This document shows positions 15,719-57,646 of a stretch of 64,000 nt of DNA, in pieces (positions within the stretch are counted from its first letter, which is position 1; the number at the start of each line of letters is the position of its first letter). Under the pieces are notes generated by a model. That model saw nothing but the letters and a program-made list of their open reading frames with translations. It had not been told where the DNA came from and made no database searches. The position numbers were made by a program, and so were the translations under genes. The stretch is from Escherichia phage T4. The stretch lies in the sequence record OL964735.1. The stretch is one strand, 5' to 3'.

Positions 15719-16683
15719 TGTATTCTTTAGAGGAATTTAATAATCAAGCAATAAACGCAGATTTCCAACGTAATAATATGTTTAGCTGCGTTTTTGCGAC
15801 AACTCCATCAACTAAAAGCTCTTCGTTGATAAGTTCAATTAGCAACTTTTCTTATAATAACTTGGGCCTAAATTCAGATTGGTTAGGATTAACTCAAGGT
15901 GATATTAATCAGGGAATTACCACGCTAATTACAGCTGGCACACAAAAACTGATAAGAAAATCAGGAGTCAGTAAATATCTTATTGGTGCCATGAGTCAAC
16001 GTACAGTTCAAAGTTTATTAGGCTCATTTACAGTTGGTACATATTTAATTGACTTCTTTAACATGGCATATAACTCATCTGGATTGATGATATACTCTGT
16101 AAAAATGCCAGAGAATAGATTATCCTATGAAACTGACTGGAACTATAATTCTCCTAATATTCGTATAACCGGAAGAGAATTAGACCCTTTGGTTATTTCA
16201 TTTAGAATGGATTCAGAAGCTTGTAACTATCGTGCAATGCAAGACTGGGTTAACTCCGTTCAAGACCCAGTAACTGGACTGCGTGCTTTGCCACAAGATG
16301 TCGAGGCAGATATTCAGGTTAATCTTCATTCTCGCAATGGATTACCTCATACTGCGGTGATGTTCACCGGATGCATTCCAATATCAGTGAGCGCTCCTGA
16401 GTTATCATATGATGGAGATAACCAAATAACTACATTTGATGTTACTTTTGCGTACAGAGTGATGCAGGCTGGAGCAGTTGATAGGCAAGCTGCGCTTGAA
16501 TGGCTTGAATCTGCTGCTATAAATGGTATTCAAAGCGTTCTCGGAAATAGTGGAGGTGTTACTGGACTATCTAATTCGCTTTCACGACTTAGTAGATTAG
16601 GGGGAACTGCAGGAAGCATTTCAAACATTAATACTATGACAGGAATTGTCAATTCGCAGAGTAAAATATTAGGAGCAATATAA
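15718..16683 (+). CDS. 54: Baseplate tail-tube initiator gp54
   Basis: 321-aa ORF; ATG overlaps the gene 48 stop. Confidence 0.9.
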   Translation: MYSLEEFNNQAINADFQRNNMFSCVFATTPSTKSSSLISSISNFSYNNLGLNSDWLGLTQGDINQGITTLITAGTQKLIRKSGVSKYLIGAMSQRTVQSLLGSFTVGTYLIDFFNMAYNSSGLMIYSVKMPENRLSYETDWNYNSPNIRITGRELDPLVISFRMDSEACNYRAMQDWVNSVQDPVTGLRALPQDVEADIQVNLHSRNGLPHTAVMFTGCIPISVSAPELSYDGDNQITTFDVTFAYRVMQAGAVDRQAALEWLESAAINGIQSVLGNSGGVTGLSNSLSRLSRLGGTAGSISNINTMTGIVNSQSKILGAI

Positions 16684-16687
16684 CAAT

Positions 16688-16705
16688 GGGGACCGAAAGG
16701 TCCCC
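16688..16705. terminator. Bidirectional hairpin terminator between convergent genes 54 and alt.-3
   Basis: ggggacc-gaaa-ggtcccc stem-loop flanked by A/T runs on both sides. Confidence 0.6.
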
Positions 16706-16711
16706 ATATTT

Positions 16712-17002
16712 TTATTTACGGAATGAAATGAAAGCAGCAACTGAAGCAACTAAACTGTCTTCAATATAAACTTCAATTTTTACAGGAGCTTCTGACTCAA
16801 ATTTACCTGTTACTACACCCTGAAAAATACTTTCAGTCTGTTCTGGCTTTGAAAAATTTTCAGAAGGAAAAATTCCGAACTTTTTATCTGTTCCAAAAAT
16901 TTTGATAAATTCATCGTAAACCGCTTCGTTAAAAGCATTATCAGCAGGAATAACGCCTTCAACTACAAGTTCTTGACCTAAAAAGCGTAAAGAAGATTTC
17001 AT
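16712..17002 (-). CDS. alt.-3: Hypothetical protein (alt.-3 position)
   Basis: 96-aa ORF downstream of the alt-like fragments. Confidence 0.55.
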   Translation of the reverse strand: MKSSLRFLGQELVVEGVIPADNAFNEAVYDEFIKIFGTDKKFGIFPSENFSKPEQTESIFQGVVTGKFESEAPVKIEVYIEDSLVASVAAFISFRK

Positions 17003-17024
17003 TTTGTGTTCCTCATGTTATGTT

Positions 17025-17065
17025 AGTAAGACTACTATAACACAACACGAGGGACTTGTAAACTA
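17025..17065 (-). promoter_or_regulatory. T4 early-type promoter (GTTTAC -35, TATAGT -10) upstream of alt.-3
   Basis: Minus strand GTTTAC, 17-nt spacer, TATAGT; same about 50-bp cassette recurs upstream of alc at 30155-30208. Confidence 0.5.
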
Positions 17066-17238
17066 CATTTTGAACTTTTTAGTACGCGTAATAGGCATGC
17101 GTCGATTTTATACTGTTTCATTGTTTGAAGAGCAGTATCAAAAACAGCATTAATGACACCAATTGGATTTCCACCCAAGTTTTTAAGCTTAACTAATGAT
17201 AGTTTCTCATTAACACCTATCATTACGATATGCATCAT
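17035..17238 (-). CDS. alt.-2: Alt paralog fragment 2 (homolog of Alt residues about 63-130)
   Basis: 67-aa ORF; MMHIV...QYKIDAC...L motifs align with the Alt N-terminal region in this window. Confidence 0.6.
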   Translation of the reverse strand: MMHIVMIGVNEKLSLVKLKNLGGNPIGVINAVFDTALQTMKQYKIDACLLRVLKSSKCSLQVPRVVL

Positions 17239-17420
17239 TTTATCGCCTGGTTTAACGTTTTATTTGTATCACCGCCAGAGGTGTATGTACAAAATCTAAA
17301 TCCAGGAAGTACACTTTCTTCACCGGCTTGAATAGCAAAAATTTGTGGTATTTTATGCTTAGGATTTAAGTTAACAACCGGCGCCGAAGCGCCGTCAAAT
17401 AATTCTGTAATAAGTTCCAT
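17235..17420 (-). CDS. alt.-1: Alt paralog fragment 1 (homolog of Alt residues 1-60)
   Basis: 61-aa ORF; MELITELFD...KIPQIF...PGFRFCTYTSGGDTN matches the Alt N-terminus; its stop overlaps the start of the next fragment (ATGATG). Confidence 0.6.
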   Translation of the reverse strand: MELITELFDGASAPVVNLNPKHKIPQIFAIQAGEESVLPGFRFCTYTSGGDTNKTLNQAIK

Positions 17421-17423
17421 GAT

Positions 17424-19472
17424 TTATCCTTGAACGAACTTGTAAGGCATGTTTGCAATATCTATGCAAGACGCAATAATTCCAAGAGATGATTCTACTT
17501 TCTGTTTAACATTTGATGAAACAAATGATGCAAAGTCAACTCTATCTTCTATATCACCTGTCATTGTAACCAATTCACCAGTTTCCATTAAATGGTCTCC
17601 GTCATAGATTACCGATTCGGTGAGTTCTTCTGTGGTCATAACTTCAGCTTGAATAAGCTTGTTGTTAGTTTTAACTGTTCCATCATTGTAAGATGCATCG
17701 GTTATTTTATTAACTTTGACCATTAATCCACGTGGCAAAATGACTTCCATTTCATTTGAAGGCGCTAAACTTCCACCGGGTAAAACAACATTGACCTTAT
17801 CAGCCCCAGTAATAACCCATCCAATTCCAACTAAATTATCGCTAGAATTTACAAGTCCTTCATCAGTTTTATCAATAGAAACGCTTAAACGCTTTTCGTC
17901 TGGTAAAACACCTATAGATGAATCAGTCATCCAAGTACCAAAAATATTTGGATATAATGATGTTGACACAAAGTTTCTAAAATAAAAAACTCGATTTTTT
18001 ACCATTGCTTCGTATATTGAAGGTAACATTCGTTGTGAACGATACAAAGTAATACCTTTTGGTAATCGTTCACCATTTTTAAAGGCTGAATCTAAATTAT
18101 CAATAGCTTTTTCTATGTCAGATGCTGTCAAAATACTTGTACGCTCATCTGGATTATATAATCCCAAAAGAGCATTATTTATGTCTACATATCCTGAACC
18201 TACGTATTCACGAATTCCGCGTTTTTGCGCTGGTGTGTATTTAGATGAATCTTTATTTTCGACTATAGGATGTAATGACCATCCAGCGGTAAGAGCATAT
18301 CCACGTAATTCTCTTCGAATAATCTTTGTTTTTATTGCATTCCAAGAATTTTGTACTAACTCATTTGCAGCATCTTGGTTTAAATGCGAATGTTTGTTAA
18401 TATTTCTTTCAAACCAAGCACCCTTATATTTTTCTAAAGTATCATCGACGATAGAAGCAATAGTTTCTAAGGTTTTTATTGAAGTAATAGATTCTTTTCG
18501 TAATCTTTCTAAAGCTTTATTTTTTATTTCTGCGTTAATAATGGATTCTTTATCTTCAGGAATTATAGAAGCTTCTCTGAATGCCATCCCAGCTGTAACA
18601 CTGCTAAGAGCATTCTCTAGTGCAAATCCTGAAGTAGAAATTACCGTTAATTCATTAGAATCAGAAATTAAAGGCGCGTCCGCTGGTTTATTTAATTCGG
18701 CCGCTGAAGCCTCAAATTTTTGAAACATTGGTGTTTCAAATCTAGAAGATTCCAATGACTGACTTTGCGCAATTGCTCTACGGGAAATTTTAACTTTAAC
18801 GATTACAGCTTGGTCAGAACGTTTATCATTTTCTTGCGCAATAGATGCTGCAATTGCCTCATTTTTAGTTACTTGAGCCCCAGTATCTTTATTGATATAA
18901 ACATCACCGACCTTCGATTCAACTTTAGTAAAGAGCTCGGTACTAATTTCCGGAACTCCTGGAATGTCTTCTAGTGATACATTTTTGCGATGTATAAGAA
19001 TATATGCATACTTTTTATCGTAATCCCAGAGTTCCTTAAGAAGGACGTATCTACCACCTGAACGACTACGGATAAGTCTATCAGCAATAACTTGAATTTG
19101 TCGAGCTTGGCCAGCAGTTTTAGACTTAAGAATACGGAGCATACAGGCATCAATTTTATACTGGCGCATTGTTTGCATTGCAACAGTAAAAACTGAATTG
19201 ATATAATTAATTGGGCTTGGACCAAGACCTTTTAATTTAGCAATTGAACCTTTAGCAGTTAATGTAAAAGGAACAATATGCATCATTTTATCGCCCATCT
19301 TTAAATCACGATTAGTATCACCTCCAGATGTATAGGTACATAAACGAAAGCCTGGTTGTTCAATTGCATCATCAACATGAACTGAAAAAATTTGCGGTAT
19401 TTTCTTCTTTGGATATAAGTTTGTAATTGGAAGAGTAGTATCTTCGTCAAATAATTCTGTAATAAGTTCCAT
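17424..19472 (-). CDS. alt: Alt ADP-ribosyltransferase (head-packaged)
   Basis: 683-aa ORF with tandem Met at the start (T4 Alt is 682 aa, so the second Met is taken); position between 54 and gene 30. Confidence 0.85.
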   Translation of the reverse strand: MELITELFDEDTTLPITNLYPKKKIPQIFSVHVDDAIEQPGFRLCTYTSGGDTNRDLKMGDKMMHIVPFTLTAKGSIAKLKGLGPSPINYINSVFTVAMQTMRQYKIDACMLRILKSKTAGQARQIQVIADRLIRSRSGGRYVLLKELWDYDKKYAYILIHRKNVSLEDIPGVPEISTELFTKVESKVGDVYINKDTGAQVTKNEAIAASIAQENDKRSDQAVIVKVKISRRAIAQSQSLESSRFETPMFQKFEASAAELNKPADAPLISDSNELTVISTSGFALENALSSVTAGMAFREASIIPEDKESIINAEIKNKALERLRKESITSIKTLETIASIVDDTLEKYKGAWFERNINKHSHLNQDAANELVQNSWNAIKTKIIRRELRGYALTAGWSLHPIVENKDSSKYTPAQKRGIREYVGSGYVDINNALLGLYNPDERTSILTASDIEKAIDNLDSAFKNGERLPKGITLYRSQRMLPSIYEAMVKNRVFYFRNFVSTSLYPNIFGTWMTDSSIGVLPDEKRLSVSIDKTDEGLVNSSDNLVGIGWVITGADKVNVVLPGGSLAPSNEMEVILPRGLMVKVNKITDASYNDGTVKTNNKLIQAEVMTTEELTESVIYDGDHLMETGELVTMTGDIEDRVDFASFVSSNVKQKVESSLGIIASCIDIANMPYKFVQG

Positions 19473-19500
19473 CATATCCTCTCTAGTGTTTATTCTATTC

Positions 19501-19508
19501 TATTTATA
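19501..19508 (-). promoter_or_regulatory. Late promoter (TATAAATA on minus strand) upstream of alt
   Basis: Plus-strand tatttata is TATAAATA on the minus strand, about 30 nt upstream of the alt ATG. Confidence 0.5.
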
Positions 19509-24223: not shown

Positions 24224-24333
24224 TTTATTCTCCTTTGTTTGTGTAAGATAATACTATCACAAAGGAACTATACTGTAAACAACTTTGTGCAATCTTTGGA
24301 AAATAAAAAAGGACTCCCGAAGGAGTCCTCAAC

Positions 24334-24510
24334 TTATGCTTTCTGCTTACCAAAACGAGAAGCATCATCTCGAAGAACCGCACGTGCTCGGCGCATGATC
24401 TTCTCAACAGTTTGATTGATACGAGAGTTCGACCCACGCTTGTAGCCAGCGCGTTTAGAATCACCAACTTTCTTTTCAACTGCTTTCTTTGCTTTAGCTT
24501 GTTTTGCCAT
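24334..24510 (-). CDS. Small highly basic protein (30.9 position)
   Basis: ORF MAKQAKAKKAVEKK...; start taken at the internal Met following the AT-rich leader; Lys/Arg-rich. Confidence 0.45.
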   Translation of the reverse strand: MAKQAKAKKAVEKKVGDSKRAGYKRGSNSRINQTVEKIMRRARAVLRDDASRFGKQKA

Positions 24511-24754
24511 TATAAATTCTCTTTTAAATGAAAATGCAGGACTTATTGGCATTGCCTGCGCAAGCCCTCAAGGGGAACATAGGTTTTTGGATATTTAACG
24601 ACCAGGATAACCATAAACCCGTCATCATTCACATTCAAGAGGTACACCGTAAAACTGTCGGGGTCTTAAAACTATAATGATTCGCAAATCATTAATCAGA
24701 CAGTTCGACGGCTCCTCGATTTAGCTCACACTAAGGCAGTGAATCTCCAATAAA

Positions 24755-29300: not shown

Positions 29301-29650
29301 TTAGAAAGGTCCTGGATGTCTTCTGCGAACTTGTTGAAGGAGTTGTTGATTTGTTTTTCAACCAATCCTGGCTTATGAGCCACCACATCCGCCTTCTTTG
29401 CATCTTTGCGCAGTTTTTCATTTTCACGCTCAATAGCAGCAATTGCCTCACGATTTTTATTATTCATCGCATCAATATAATTATACTGAATTCGCAAATT
29501 ATTTAATGCTAAGGCGTTTTCATTGGCCGTTTTTGTAATTTCAGTAACTGATGTTTCTAATCTTTCTACCTTATGTTTTAAAATAATAGATGTTCCGCCA
29601 AATGCTATTACAAGTAATAGCAATCCAGCTGTAAAATTACTTACATGCAT
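29297..29650 (-). CDS. pseT.3: Inner-membrane spanin (i-spanin)
   Basis: 117-aa ORF; N-terminal TM helix (GLLLLVIAFGGTSIIL) followed by a coiled-coil-like region; overlaps the o-spanin start. Confidence 0.7.
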   Translation of the reverse strand: MHVSNFTAGLLLLVIAFGGTSIILKHKVERLETSVTEITKTANENALALNNLRIQYNYIDAMNNKNREAIAAIERENEKLRKDAKKADVVAHKPGLVEKQINNSFNKFAEDIQDLSK

Positions 29651-30144
29651 AAAGTTTTAATAACCTCTACAATATCGTCTTGAGAAAGACCGTTAATTAA
29701 AATATGATGTTCAGCTGGAGATTTAGAAATTTTAAAGCATGCCTCAACATCTTCTGCCATATCCGATGCACTACGATTTGGATTACTAATACCAAGGCGA
29801 TGTTTTCCCGTCAAAGGATTAACGATGATATAGCATTTGCAGCTATTGATATGAACATTGGGTTGAGTCTGATTAATGAACACTTCACAATCATACTTAG
29901 CAAGTTGATTTTCTAAAAAGACTTTCATCTCTTCAACCGCATCAGGAAGCATATCACGGGCTTGCTCAAGACGACGATTTCGATATTCTTTAATGGTCGT
30001 TTTCCGCTTGACTTGCTTAGCTAAATCTTTCTTAAGATCAGTGATATATCCAACTCGACGATTTCCTTTGAATACAGAAATCCCATCTGTAGTATCACCG
30101 TATGCTTCAACGACCATTTCAGTAGTAATAAGTTGTAAATCCAT
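29641..30144 (-). CDS. alc: Alc, inhibitor of host transcription
   Basis: 168-aa ORF with tandem Met start (T4 Alc is 167 aa); preceded by an early promoter. Confidence 0.8.
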   Translation of the reverse strand: MDLQLITTEMVVEAYGDTTDGISVFKGNRRVGYITDLKKDLAKQVKRKTTIKEYRNRRLEQARDMLPDAVEEMKVFLENQLAKYDCEVFINQTQPNVHINSCKCYIIVNPLTGKHRLGISNPNRSASDMAEDVEACFKISKSPAEHHILINGLSQDDIVEVIKTLCM

Positions 30145-30164
30145 CATAAAGTCCTCATGTTATG

Positions 30165-30208
30165 TCAGTAAGACTACTATAACACAACACGAGGGACTTG
30201 TAAACAAC
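30165..30208 (-). promoter_or_regulatory. T4 early-type promoter upstream of alc
   Basis: GTTTAC -35 and TATAGT -10 on the minus strand; nearly identical to the cassette at 17025-17065. Confidence 0.5.
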
Positions 30209-31796
<1,588 letters not shown>

Positions 31797-32326: not shown

Positions 32327-32924
32327 CGTATGTTCGATTGAGCTCGCTAATTCTCAACCCGTTCTCTTATGAACTGCTGCATGTTACCATGCAGTCCAGA
32401 CTATATCACAATCCCGGAGGGATTCTCCCCATTTCGAGTCGCTTGACCCTACGTCCGAAGACTAGTCGTTGAACCTTGTTTTGCAATTGTCGCCGTGCCA
32501 TCGTTTATATGTTGATGGTGATAAATCTTTCTTATCACAATATGGACAATTCAATTGAATTCTATTTGGATTTAATTTACATCTGTCATTATGTTTTAGA
32601 TAAAATCCAGGACCTTTACCAATGTGACCACAGAAATCACATGTGATTTCTTTTTGTGCAGGATGGGTCCCGTTCTTAACCATTTCTAATGTTTTTGCTG
32701 ATGTTCTTTTCTTATGTTCTTCCATCAGAATCTTTAGGTATAGGTCCGTTAGCATCTATCCAAATTTTTCTATAGTTCAATTGTGCATCCTCTTAAAAGT
32801 ATAATCATATTTATATTATACTAATTAAAGGTGCAAGCAAAACCTTGGCTGCTAGTTTTCCATAAAGGACTTTCCAGCAATTAAAGGAGTTTTCGATAAA
32901 CGTTACCGTTTAAAGGCGCATTTT
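32327..32924 (-). mobile_element. Group I self-splicing intron in nrdB (598 nt)
   Basis: Interrupts a conserved R2 motif (exon 1 ends ...YVSFA, exon 2 resumes ...TFNFHKNMEIMEGNAK); 5' exon ends in U and intron ends in G; length equals the T4 nrdB intron. Confidence 0.8.
32462..32755 (-). pseudogene. I-TevIII: Truncated intron-encoded homing endonuclease (I-TevIII remnant)
   Basis: 97-aa ORF inside the nrdB intron with Cys/His zinc-finger-like motifs; far shorter than an intact endonuclease (about 270 aa). Confidence 0.65.
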
Positions 32925-33588
32925 ACGCAAAAGATACATAAAAACGAATAGCTTCTAAGGCATTAATAACGTGCAAACAGAGGTAAAGAGATTTCATCAG
33001 ATCTCGTTTAGCTCTTTGCTCAACGTCTTTATCAGCTAGAATTAGACCTTGGTCTTTATAATATTCAACCATGTCTTTAGCATTTTCCCATTCACGGGTT
33101 TTAACCAAGACATCATCGTAATATCGCCCAATGGACTCAGCACGTTTCATAATAGCTTCATCTAATACAATCTCATCAAACACCTTCGATGGATCAGTAT
33201 AAAGATTTCGCATGATATGAGTATATGAACGACTGTGAATAGTTTCACTAAAAGTCCATGTAGCAACCCATGTATCAAGGCTTGGGTCTGAAATTAATGA
33301 CATAAGTACAGCAGATGGCGCACGACCCTGAATGCTATCCAAAAGTGATTGATACTTCAGGTTGTTAGTAAAAATATTTTGCTGATACTGAGGAAGCTTA
33401 TTAAATTGCGCAGCATCCATCATTAAGTTTACTTCTTCAGGACGCCAAAAAAAACTGATCTGCCGCTCAATGAGTTCTTCAAATACTCGATGTCGTTGAA
33501 TATCATATCGAGCTAAACCTAATCCAGAACCAAAGAACATCGGTTCATTCAAAACATCAACTGGATTTGTATTAAAAACTGTACTCAT
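32925..33588 (-). CDS. nrdB: Ribonucleotide reductase small subunit NrdB, exon 1
   Basis: N-terminal R2 sequence up to ...EAIRFYVSFA; the in-frame stop after exon 1 lies in the intron. Confidence 0.85.
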
Positions 33589-40702: not shown

Positions 40703-40745
40703 GATAGTTGTATAGTACCATAAAGCTTTATGCTTGTAAACCGTT
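40703..40745 (-). promoter_or_regulatory. T4 early-type promoter upstream of frd.3
   Basis: Minus strand: A/T-rich UP region, GTTTAC, spacer, TACTATAC -10; cassette about 75 bp, nearly identical to 57403-57470. Confidence 0.5.
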
Positions 40746-40772
40746 TTGTGAAAAAATTTTTAAAATAAAAAA

Positions 40773-40791
40773 GGGGACCTCTAGGGTCCCC
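40773..40791 (-). terminator. Rho-independent terminator after gene 32
   Basis: ggggacc-tcta-gggtcccc hairpin followed by a U-run on the minus strand. Confidence 0.6.
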
Positions 40792-40813
40792 AATTAATTA
40801 GTAATATAATCTA

Positions 40814-57369: not shown

Positions 57370-57402
57370 TTTCTAATCTCCGTAATTCTGTATCAGTAGT
57401 TG

Positions 57403-57445
57403 ATAGTTGTATAGTACCACAGTATGCTTTGGTTGTAAACCGTTT
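57403..57445 (-). promoter_or_regulatory. Early promoter for motA
   Basis: Minus strand: UP-like A/T tract, GTTTAC, spacer, TACTATAC; cassette nearly identical to 40703-40770. Confidence 0.55.
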
Positions 57446-57471
57446 TGTGAAAAAATTTTTAAAATAAAAAA

Positions 57472-57491
57472 GGGAGAGCCTCGGCTCTCCC
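57472..57491 (-). terminator. Rho-independent terminator upstream of the motA promoter
   Basis: gggagagcc-tc-ggctctccc hairpin followed by a U-run on the minus strand. Confidence 0.6.
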
Positions 57492-57496
57492 TAAAA

Positions 57497-57646
57497 TTAC
57501 TGCATGACTGTGATAACTGTCATGATAACACGTTGAATTCCGAACGCAAGAAGACCTCCTGCTACGGCTGGAACAACGCCTAAACCCGCCAGTAAAATGC
57601 TACCAGATACTAATGCAGCGCTTGTAATACCAATGAATGGACTCAT
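57497..57646 (-). CDS. Small hydrophobic membrane peptide (motA.1 position)
   Basis: 49-codon ORF read by hand; ATG overlaps the gene 52 stop (ATGA); entirely hydrophobic (MSPFIGITSAALVSGSILLAGLGVVPAVAGGLLAFGIQRV...). Confidence 0.45.
   Translation of the reverse strand: MSPFIGITSAALVSGSILLAGLGVVPAVAGGLLAFGIQRVIMTVITVMQ

What the first reader, a model, noticed from the sequence alone, without database searches (positions are those of the whole stretch)
17016..17068. Second repeated early-promoter cassette shared by alt.-3 and alc upstream regions
tcatgttatgt(t/c)agtaagactactataacacaacacgagggacttgtaaac occurs at 17016-17063 and again at 30155-30205, with one mismatch over about 50 bp. On the minus strand it gives GTTTAC, a 17-nt spacer and TATAGT, in both cases about 30-40 nt upstream of a start codon. 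The two copies are 13 kb apart in direct orientation.
Basis: seen in the sequence. Interest (0 to 1): 0.35.

Follow-up and report, generated by a model that had tools for sequence, protein, structure and literature searches.

The report
Early promoter inside ribosome-site-hiding hairpin
The repeat is real: phage T4 carries two near-identical 54-57-base control cassettes, before genes alc and alt.-3, each an early promoter inside an RNA hairpin predicted to hide the gene's ribosome-binding site on longer transcripts, a new twist on a known T4 control device.

Summary
The window is phage T4 (100% identical to T4T). The repeat exists: 17010-17066 and 30152-30208 match at 55 of 57 bases, in direct orientation, 13,142 bp apart. 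One copy lies just upstream of alt.-3, the other just upstream of alc. About 500 Tequatrovirus genomes carry the same pair.

On the minus strand each copy reads TTTACA-17 nt-TG-TATAGT, then a 22-25-nt leader, GAGGA and ATG. RNA arriving from upstream folds a hairpin of -23 to -24 kcal/mol that buries the SD. RNA started at the nested promoter lacks the 5' arm.

At alc this layout recurs in 10 of 14 other representatives (13 genera) with different sequences, which indicates compensatory change. In five other genera the alt.-3 promoter lacks it, so the alt.-3 copy is probably a Tequatrovirus-specific copy of the alc cassette.

Across 32 non-redundant predicted T4 early promoters, spacers pair with their own leaders far better than with other leaders (z = -9.4).

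Published omics data class alc and alt.-3 as early RNA and early protein.

Closest known: the e/soc/49/I-TevI hairpins and PeSL cassettes. Verdict: new variant of a known kind, moderate interest.

The parts
17010..17066 (-). Cassette copy 1 (alt.-3): from the -35 element to the Shine-Dalgarno sequence; 55/57 identical to copy 2
   Evidence: D5
17057..17062 (-). -35 hexamer TTTACA (GTTTAC = 17063-17058) of the alt.-3 early promoter
17034..17039 (-). -10 hexamer TATAGT with a TG extension. The stop codon TAG of the remnant ORF alt.-2 (17035-17037) lies inside it.
17027..17027 (-). Predicted transcription start (7th base after the -10 element), at the loop/3'-arm boundary of the hairpin. Inferred, not mapped.
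   Evidence: sequence geometry
17033..17055 (-). 5' arm of the hairpin (promoter spacer plus -10 element); it acts as the anti-SD
17008..17028 (-). 3' arm of the hairpin: leader plus Shine-Dalgarno GAGGA (17014-17010)
16712..17002 (-). alt.-3 (96 aa, DUF5498, function unknown), the gene served by copy 1
   Evidence: early RNA and early protein
17035..17420 (-). alt.-2 and alt.-1: remnants of a second alt paralog, through which read-through RNA reaches copy 1
   Evidence: intact paralog in the other Tequatroviruses examined
19501..19508 (-). Late-promoter motif TATAAATA just upstream of alt (ATG at 19475); likely source of late read-through RNA into alt.-3
   Evidence: alt is classed as late
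16686..16707 (.). Bidirectional terminator-like hairpin between alt.-3 and the convergent gene 54
30152..30208 (-). Cassette copy 2 (alc); it fills the rnlA-alc intergenic space (rnlA stop codon at 30209-30211)
30199..30204 (-). -35 hexamer TTTACA of the alc early promoter
30176..30181 (-). -10 hexamer TATAGT with a TG extension
30169..30169 (-). Predicted transcription start of the alc early RNA (inferred)
   Evidence: sequence geometry
30175..30199 (-). 5' arm of the alc hairpin (spacer plus -10 element)
30149..30170 (-). 3' arm of the alc hairpin, including Shine-Dalgarno GAGGA (30156-30152)
29641..30147 (-). alc (inhibitor of host transcription, Pfam ALC). The annotated ATG is at 30144; a second in-frame ATG is at 30147.
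30209..31333 (-). rnlA (gene 63), the upstream gene whose transcripts run into copy 2 with no terminator in between

Best explanation
Each copy is a complete control cassette for a T4 immediate-early gene. It holds a strong sigma-70 early promoter (TTTACA, 17 nt, TG, TATAGT), a 22-25-nt leader and a GAGGA Shine-Dalgarno (SD) sequence. The promoter spacer and -10 region are complementary to the leader and SD.

Any RNA that enters from upstream carries both arms. For copy 1 that means alt transcripts read through alt.-1 and alt.-2. For copy 2 it means rnlA transcripts. Such RNA folds a hairpin with an outer stem of about 15-18 bp plus a 4-5-bp inner stem, and this buries the SD.

RNA started at the nested promoter begins at the loop/3'-arm boundary. 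It has only the 3' arm, so its SD is free. The cassette would therefore tie translation of alc and alt.-3 to the firing of their own early promoter. This is the mirror image in time of the late-only gates at T4 genes e, soc, 49 and I-TevI.

Shown here:
- the repeat;
- the promoter motifs;
- the fold and its statistics;
- compensatory conservation of the fold at alc across genera;
- the absence of predicted terminators upstream;
- the published early class of both genes.

Inferred:
- the transcription start points;
- real read-through;
- the effect on translation;
- the alc-to-alt.-3 direction of copying in the Tequatrovirus ancestor.
For: Repeat and genes. Promoter motifs.

Fold:
- In 86-nt read-through segments the energy is -23.3 kcal/mol (alt.-3) and -26.9 kcal/mol (alc), with z = -4.6 and -3.05 against dinucleotide shuffles. 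The 38-nt RNAs that start at the promoter fold at only about -2 kcal/mol.
- The mean probability that the SD is unpaired is 0.001 in read-through RNA, against 0.51 (alc) and 0.88 (alt.-3) in own-promoter RNA.

Conservation at alc:
- Of 14 other representatives (13 genera), 10 fold a hairpin whose 5' arm starts right after the -35 element and whose 3' arm covers the SD, with different sequences.
- Spacer against own leader gives -15.8 kcal/mol, against -9.1 for non-cognate pairs; 0 of 20,000 permutations reach the observed value.
- Spacer positions 13, 15-17, 20 and 21 carry 3-4 canonical pair types.

Within Tequatrovirus:
- Variants in the 5' arm are C>U opposite G, or G>A opposite U, and so keep the pairing.
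- The sense strand folds 5-10 kcal/mol better than the antisense strand because of G-U pairs.

Context:
- No terminator-like site is predicted on the minus strand between alt and copy 1 or between rnlA and copy 2.
- A late-promoter motif sits before alt.
- alc and alt.-3 are early RNA and early protein, alt is late, rnlA is early RNA and late protein, and alt.-1/alt.-2 RNA is middle with no protein detected.

Direction of copying: the alt.-3 promoters of 5 other genera have a spacer-only hairpin and no SD pairing.

Generality: for 32 non-redundant predicted T4 early promoters, spacer against own leader gives z = -9.4, and three negative controls are flat.
Against: - Nothing here maps a transcription start or measures translation.
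- The fold is a thermodynamic prediction. Ribosomes translating rnlA or alt.-2 up to the cassette could open the hairpin: the alt.-2 stop codon lies inside the 5' arm, and the rnlA stop abuts the -35 element.
- Four or five of the sampled alc loci do not bury the SD. In Tegunavirus, Kanagawavirus PEi20 and Zedzedvirus the hairpin stops short of it. Mosigvirus has a spacer-only hairpin. Gaprivervirus has a leader-only hairpin.
- The authors of the PeSL concept interpret such promoter-overlapping stem-loops as terminators or attenuators.
- The direction of copying rests on architecture only; sequence identity does not discriminate.
Confidence: 0.6

Rival explanations
1. PeSL-type insulator. The stem-loop mainly terminates or attenuates transcription coming from the upstream gene, so that alc and alt.-3 are transcribed only from their own promoter. 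The burying of the SD is a side effect.
For: Arbiol et al. 2010 describe promoter-overlapping stem-loops in RB49/phi1. One stem-loop, cloned without its promoter, reduced lacZ expression about as much as the rrnB T1 terminator. One GenBank record (SA20RB) annotates the alt.-3 copy as a rho-independent terminator by software prediction. In the alc copy the stem is followed by UUUAUGAU.
Against: The alt.-3 copy is followed by ACACAAAAUG, and the alc cassettes of most other genera by A-rich sequence, so there is no U-tract. The terminator scan lists neither copy. In 10 of 14 other representatives the 3' arm covers the SD, which a terminator has no need to do.
Confidence: 0.18
2. 3'-end protection or processing element. 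The hairpin stabilises the upstream rnlA and alt messages against 3'-5' exonucleases after cleavage, or shields the SD region from nucleases. It has no role in gating translation.
For: Stable hairpins at the ends of cistrons are common stabilisers (established knowledge). The T4 review notes that RNA secondary structure protects sites from RegB cleavage.
Against: This does not explain why the 5' arm is always written into the promoter spacer, or why the predicted start falls exactly at the loop/3'-arm boundary. The T4 SD here is GAGGA, not the RegB motif GGAG.
Confidence: 0.1
3. Recombination linker. The two direct copies matter chiefly as homology patches for modular shuffling, deletion or duplication of the 13-kb block.
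For: According to the PeSL paper, T4 recombination needs less than 50 bp of homology, and PeSL pairs form mini-circles in RB49/phi1. The alt.-3 neighbourhood varies between phages: only 90 of 527 records cover at least 80% of the 2-kb query.
Against: Of 508 records with the cassette, nearly all hold exactly two copies (1,006 places in all). The interval contains genes 30 and 31, which I know to be essential. The one extra copy found, in phage G28, lies inside a perfect 351-bp tandem duplication whose ends are not at the cassette. The haplotype TTCCTTATG is seen only at alt.-3, which argues against frequent homogenisation.
Confidence: 0.07
4. A plain duplicated promoter. The inverted repeat is incidental or acts on DNA (spacer shape, cruciform), not on RNA.
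For: Early promoters of T4 share a long consensus, so some similarity between them is expected (D1, 59).
Against: The identity runs through the non-consensus spacer and the leader. The arms covary across genera. In Tequatrovirus the fold relies on G-U pairs and is 5-10 kcal/mol weaker on the opposite strand, which a cruciform would not tolerate. The controls with the upstream 18 nt, the coding sequence and the reverse-complemented spacer are flat.
Confidence: 0.05

Closest known systems
Inhibitory hairpins with a nested promoter at T4 genes e (lysozyme), soc, 49 and I-TevI (reviewed in PMC3014915)
   Same: The SD and/or AUG is buried in a helix on long transcripts. A promoter lies in or at the 5' arm, so the RNA it starts lacks that arm and is translated. 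The device is conserved among relatives.
   Different: There the nested promoter is a late one (TATAAATA) and the gate confines translation to late times. Here it is a sigma-70 early promoter whose -35 to -10 spacer itself is the anti-SD, so the gate would confine translation to the early-promoter window. The review does not list alc or alt.-3 among its examples. No experiment exists for this case.
PeSL (promoter-early stem-loop) cassettes of T4-type phages (Arbiol et al. 2010, PMC2839356; Comeau et al. 2014, PMC4122927)
   Same: [quoted passage not shown] It is repeated in the genome. The promoter consensus given for the PST/T4 pair is TTTACW-N17-TAYWAT.
   Different: PeSL stems are described as terminators or attenuators (often GGGG...CCCC) and as recombination linkers around variable ORFans. 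The word 'translation' does not occur in the 2010 paper. Here the stem is AU/GU-rich, has no general U-tract, pairs with the SD, and at alc sits at a fixed, syntenic junction in many genera.
Other T4 early promoters in the same genome
   Same: They share GTTTAC, an 18-nt spacer, TG and TAnnnT. Many also have a spacer complementary to their own leader. Examples that cover the SD lie upstream of motB.2, denV, regB and nrdC.8, and at window 60575.
   Different: Apart from this pair they share only 60-75% identity (D1). About half of the strong cases pair the spacer with the +1 region, not the SD (for example dmd, motB, ipI, ipII).

Membership tests
T4 early (sigma-70) promoter | -35 GTTTAC/TTTACA, a 17-nt spacer, an extended -10 TG, and a -10 TAnnnT | tested here: met
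   TTTACA-17-TATAGT with TG at both copies, 10 of 12 consensus matches. One search places them among 39 similar sites.
T4 early (sigma-70) promoter | [quoted passage not shown] | tested here: inconclusive
   The 25 nt upstream are 68% A+T at both copies. This is lower than the 76-88% seen at many other predicted early promoters, and the region is coding sequence (rnlA, alt.-2).
T4 early (sigma-70) promoter | Active immediately after infection without phage proteins, with a mapped 5' end | not testable with these tools
Indirect support: alc and alt.-3 are early RNA and early protein in the PMC9697503 supplement.
SD-sequestering hairpin with nested promoter (e/soc/49/I-TevI type) | The Shine-Dalgarno sequence and/or start codon is paired in a stable helix on the long transcript | tested here: met
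   all 4 SD bases are paired, P(unpaired) is 0.001, and dG is -23 to -27 kcal/mol with z -3 to -5.
SD-sequestering hairpin with nested promoter (e/soc/49/I-TevI type) | The promoter lies within the 5' arm, so its transcript lacks that arm | tested here: met
   The -10 element is at hairpin positions 25-30 and the predicted +1 is at position 37, the first bases of the 3' arm. The start point is inferred from spacing, not mapped.
SD-sequestering hairpin with nested promoter (e/soc/49/I-TevI type) | Upstream-initiated transcripts really extend across the site | tested here: inconclusive
   No terminator-like site is predicted on the minus strand between alt or rnlA and the cassettes. A late-promoter motif lies before alt. 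No RNA data could be laid on the sequence.
SD-sequestering hairpin with nested promoter (e/soc/49/I-TevI type) | Translation differs between long and short transcripts (experiment) | not testable with these tools
   This needs reporter fusions, toeprinting or ribosome profiling.
PeSL cassette | An intergenic unit with stop codon, early promoter, stem-loop, SD and ATG, repeated in the genome | tested here: met
   Copy 2 runs exactly from the rnlA stop codon to the alc ATG.
PeSL cassette | The stem-loop works as a transcription terminator or attenuator | tested here: inconclusive
   There is no U-tract after the alt.-3 copy or after most alc homologues. Neither copy is listed by the terminator scan. 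No functional test was possible.
PeSL cassette | Flanks variable ORFans in hyperplastic regions and mediates their shuffling | tested here: not met
   rnlA-alc and alt-alt.-3 are syntenic across many genera. About 500 genomes keep exactly two copies.
Any curated RNA family (Rfam 15) | A match to a covariance model | tested here: not met
   no hit at either copy at E up to 1.

The most novel reading that the evidence does not exclude
The anti-leader spacer may be a general design rule of early promoters in T4-type phages. The 17-18 nt between the -35 and -10 elements would be selected to pair with the promoter's own leader, often with the SD itself. Genes embedded in long transcription units would then be translated, or otherwise handled, only on RNA born at their own early promoter. 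On this reading the PeSL stem-loops are at least partly translational gates, not only terminators, and the alc/alt.-3 cassette is the clearest portable example. My data show that the complementarity is general in T4 (z = -9.4, with flat controls). About 7 of 39 predicted promoters strongly bury the SD. The function itself is untested.
Probability: 0.35. Interest if true: 0.6.

Novelty: new variant of a known kind. Interest (0 to 1): 0.42.

Why it matters
If the gate works, it explains how T4 limits synthesis of the host-shutoff protein Alc, and of the unknown protein Alt.-3, to the first minutes of infection, even though their coding sequences keep being transcribed as the tails of the rnlA and alt messages. 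It adds an early-only counterpart to the classic late-only gates of T4. It gives a functional reading, in terms of translation, to promoter-overlapping stem-loops that the PeSL papers treated as terminators and recombination sites. It also has two practical uses. The spacer of a sigma-70 promoter can carry an anti-SD, which is a compact part for synthetic biology. And phage annotation pipelines should not label such hairpins as terminators by default.

Tried and rejected
No whole genome is held for the window, so I fetched T4T 1-80000 instead.
- Literature: Miller et al. 2003 (PMC150520), which lists the T4 early promoters, is not held. Searches for names such as Pe136 or 'alc promoter' found nothing relevant. 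A broad search for an early-promoter SD gate found only the 2010 review.
- RNAalifold on a plain MAFFT alignment of 14 alc cassettes gave no consensus structure. The arms are not in the same columns in different genera. I used cognate versus non-cognate duplex energies and a pair table by spacer position instead.
- Sequence identity does not tell which locus donated the cassette: 0.72 to foreign alc cassettes against 0.71 to foreign alt.-3 cassettes. The direction rests on architecture only.
- Concerted evolution: in 9 Tequatrovirus genomes with both copies captured, two G/A polymorphisms near the -10 element occur at both loci, and G28 has the same double variant in all its copies. By my hand count the within-genome association is not significant (Fisher p about 0.2-0.3). 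Recurrent gene conversion is therefore neither shown nor excluded.
- IMG/VR holds only a handful of T4-genus contigs, so relatives came mostly from the phage collection.
- A third copy in phage G28 looked like a sign of mobility. It is part of a perfect 351-bp tandem duplication that also includes the rnlA 3' end and the alc 5' end.

Full report
**Identity of the window**

A 2-kb query around each copy matches phage T4 records at 100% (T4T HM137666, RB55, RB59 and several T4 isolates). In the reference annotation AF158101 the first copy lies between alt.-2 and alt.-3. The second lies between rnlA (gene 63) and alc. All of these genes are on the minus strand.

**The observation**

(family D5) reports 17010-17066 and 30152-30208 as a direct repeat. 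It is 55/57 identical and the copies are 13,142 bp apart. Searches show the bases.

- Read on the minus strand, copy 1 is GTTTACAAGTCCCTCGTGTTGTGTTATAGTAGTCTTACTAACATAACATGAGGA, followed by ACACAAAATG (the alt.-3 start at 17002).
- Copy 2 differs by one base inside this stretch (ACTGAC for ACTAAC) and is followed by CTTTATGATG (alc starts at 30147 and 30144).
- The similarity ends at the -35 element on one side and at the SD (Shine-Dalgarno sequence) on the other.
- scores both as TTTACA-17-TATAGT with a TG extension.

folds the minus-strand RNA across each copy. The spacer and -10 region (CCCUCGUGUUGUGUUAUAGUAG) pair with the leader and SD (CUNACAUAACAUGAGG).

- The fold energy is -23.3 kcal/mol (alt.-3) and -26.9 kcal/mol (alc) for 86-nt segments. 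Against dinucleotide shuffles, z is -4.6 and -3.05.
- The 38-nt RNAs that begin where the promoter should start fold at only about -2 kcal/mol.
- By position, the -10 hexamer occupies hairpin positions 25-30 and the four-base loop positions 32-35.
- The usual +1, seven bases after the -10 element, is position 37. That is the first base or two of the 3' arm (window 17027 and 30169).
- Partition-function values give a mean probability that the SD is unpaired of 0.001 in read-through RNA. In own-promoter RNA the value is 0.51 (alc) and 0.88 (alt.-3).

**Is the pair specific to T4?**

No. A 68-nt query finds 508 phage records and 1,006 places. In practice that means two copies in every Tequatrovirus.

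In T2, G28, phiC600P9, SA20RB, Sf21 and KIT03 a second full-length alt paralog lies between alt and the cassette. In T4 it has decayed to alt.-1 and alt.-2. This largely explains why the spacing is 13 kb in T4 and 14.4-15.9 kb in the other genomes examined.

**Is the hairpin selected?**

I fetched the rnlA-alc junction from 14 further representatives in 13 genera: Gelderlandvirus (plus one related IMG/VR contig), Karamvirus, Jiaodavirus, Roskildevirus, Mosigvirus, Bragavirus, Dhakavirus, Tegunavirus, Kanagawavirus (two phages), Zedzedvirus, Tulanevirus and Gaprivervirus.

- Synteny is kept. The gap is 57-76 nt, and longer in Zedzedvirus, where an extra small ORF lies between rnlA and alc. A GTTTACA or GTGTACA box is always present.
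- In 10 of the 14, the minimum-energy fold has a 5' arm starting one to three bases after the -35 element and a 3' arm covering the SD. Energies are -17.6 to -21.7 kcal/mol and z is -3.4 to -4.9 (mononucleotide shuffles). The arm sequences differ, for example AUCUCCGUUUAGUU/AACUAAACGGAGAU and AACCUCUCAUUUUU/GAAAAUGAGAGGUU.
- A test that needs no alignment compares the duplex energy of each 18-nt spacer with its own leader (-15.8 kcal/mol) and with the leaders of the other loci (-9.1 kcal/mol). None of 20,000 permutations reaches the observed value.
- Spacer positions 13, 15-17, 20 and 21 carry three or four different canonical pair types.

There are exceptions:

- In Tegunavirus, PEi20 and Zedzedvirus a strong hairpin stops a few bases before the SD.
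- In Mosigvirus the hairpin lies within the spacer only.
- Tulanevirus folds weakly.
- Gaprivervirus has a leader-only hairpin in front of an extra alc-like fragment ORF.

Within Tequatrovirus I compared 11 genomes; both copies were captured in 9 of them.

- The variants in the outer stem are C>U opposite G or G>A opposite U. One C>A can be absorbed by shifting the neighbouring bulged C (my inference).
- The sense strand folds 5-10 kcal/mol better than the antisense strand. This points to RNA, not a DNA cruciform.
- In the other genera the helices are pure Watson-Crick and give no information about strand.

**Origin of the second copy**

alt.-3 (Pfam DUF5498, function unknown) follows alt in other genera too. 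There it also has its own promoter, with the alt stop codon overlapping the first base of GTTTAC.

Those five promoters (Karamvirus, Gaprivervirus, Mosigvirus, Kanagawavirus, Marfavirus) have only a small hairpin inside the spacer, of the type CACAAGGAnGTG. They do not pair with the SD; z is +0.3 to -1.6.

By parsimony, the alc-type cassette replaced the original alt.-3 promoter in the ancestor of Tequatrovirus. Identity values alone do not decide this.

I saw no convincing sign of ongoing homogenisation. The haplotype TTCCTTATG occurs only at alt.-3. Two G/A polymorphisms near the -10 element occur at both loci but are not significantly associated within genomes.

**Context that gives the gate something to do**

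- No terminator-like site is predicted on the minus strand between alt and copy 1, or between rnlA and copy 2.
- A late-promoter motif TATAAATA sits 26 nt before the alt ATG.
- The time-resolved omics study PMC9697503 names alt as a late gene. Its supplement classes alc and alt.-3 as early RNA and early protein, alt.-1/alt.-2 as middle RNA with no protein detected, and rnlA as early RNA and late protein.

These facts fit a device that keeps alc and alt.-3 from being translated on the tails of later messages. They do not prove it.

**Generality**

On T4T 1-80000 plus the window, I predicted 39 early promoters with a nearby SD and ATG.

- Spacer against own leader gives -11.5 kcal/mol, against -7.0 for non-cognate pairs; 0 of 20,000 permutations reach the observed value.
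- After removing paralogous promoters (32 left), z is -9.4.
- Three controls are flat, with z between -0.7 and +0.7: the 18 nt upstream of the -35 element, the coding sequence after the ATG, and the reverse-complemented spacer.
- The strong cases fall into two groups. In one the spacer pairs with the SD: alc, alt.-3, and the promoters before motB.2, denV, regB, nrdC.8 and at window 60575. In the other the spacer pairs with the +1 region: dmd, motB, ipI, ipII, mobD.2, e.7, and window 23888 and 27300.

**Comparison with what is known**

- The 2010 review of T4 post-transcriptional control lists e, soc, 49 and I-TevI as genes whose SD or AUG is hidden on long RNAs and freed on RNAs from a nested promoter. 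It adds I-TevII, I-TevIII, mobE and segB. Where the review describes the nested promoter (gene e, I-TevI) it is a late one. alc is not mentioned.
- The PeSL papers describe early promoters joined to stem-loops that may lie between or across the -35 and -10 boxes. [quoted passage not shown] They interpret the stems as terminators or attenuators and the units as recombination linkers. The word 'translation' does not occur in the 2010 paper.
- Rfam has no model for the element.

I therefore file the element as working like the e/soc/49/I-TevI gates and as looking like a PeSL. It has a new twist: an early promoter whose spacer is the anti-SD, fixed at a syntenic site.

**Independence from earlier notes**

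I reached this reading before opening the scan's notes. Those notes show that agents working on sister genomes reached the same reading. They are not independent evidence.

**Limits**

No transcription start, read-through or translation effect was measured here. My confidence that this is a real, repeated early-promoter cassette with a selected hairpin is high, about 0.9. My confidence in the translational gate as the main function is about 0.6.

Noticed in passing
window 40703-40800 and 57402-57499: Another repeated regulatory cassette, 79% identical over 98 nt. Each copy holds a G+C-rich terminator-like stem-loop (GGGGACCC...GGGTCCCC and GGGAGAGCC...GGCTCTCCC), an A/T-rich tract and an early promoter.
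   Followed up: no
L031 (T4T) about 20598 and L032 (T4T 57977), minus strand: The early promoters upstream of dmd and of mobD.2a are paralogous cassettes whose spacer/+1 hairpins differ by compensatory changes (GCTGACAAGACTA/TAGTCTTGTCGGT against GTTGACAAGATTA/TAATCTTGTCAAC). They form a second promoter-hairpin pair.
   Followed up: partly
L038 (phage G28, MG867727) 32375-33076: A perfect 351-bp tandem duplication holds the rnlA 3' end, the cassette and the first ~290 nt of alc. It gives a third cassette copy and a truncated alc ORF.
   Followed up: yes
L008 (IMG/VR, Gaprivervirus) 1501-1750: An alc-like N-terminal fragment ORF (~75 aa) lies between the promoter and the real alc (ATG at 1748). 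It is an older, diverged partial duplication of the same kind as in G28. The SD-hiding hairpin there lies wholly in the leader.
   Followed up: partly
window 17035-17420; L038-L043: The other Tequatroviruses examined carry two full-length alt paralogs in tandem. T4 keeps only frameshifted remnants of the second (alt.-1 and alt.-2). D11 (17393-17423 against 19445-19475, 97%) is the duplicated alt 5' end.
   Followed up: partly
L031 2458, L032 960, window 60851; L033-L037: A small spacer-only hairpin of the type CACAAGGA(T/A)GTG recurs in several T4 early promoters and in the alt.-3 promoters of five other genera. Its function is unknown.
   Followed up: no
window 24295-24378 (-): A weak Rfam hit to the Rhizobiales sRNA Atu_C8 (31.4 bits, E = 0.005, below the gathering score of 50), next to the minus-strand terminator-like hairpins at 24309-24372 and about 130 nt from the rIII-30.9 spacer (24511-24754) that another finding describes as a structured RNA array. 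It is probably a chance match to a hairpin.
   Followed up: no
L041 (SA20RB, OL960581) 16500-16549: The deposited annotation labels the alt.-3 cassette hairpin as a rho-independent terminator (software prediction), although no U-tract follows it.
   Followed up: no
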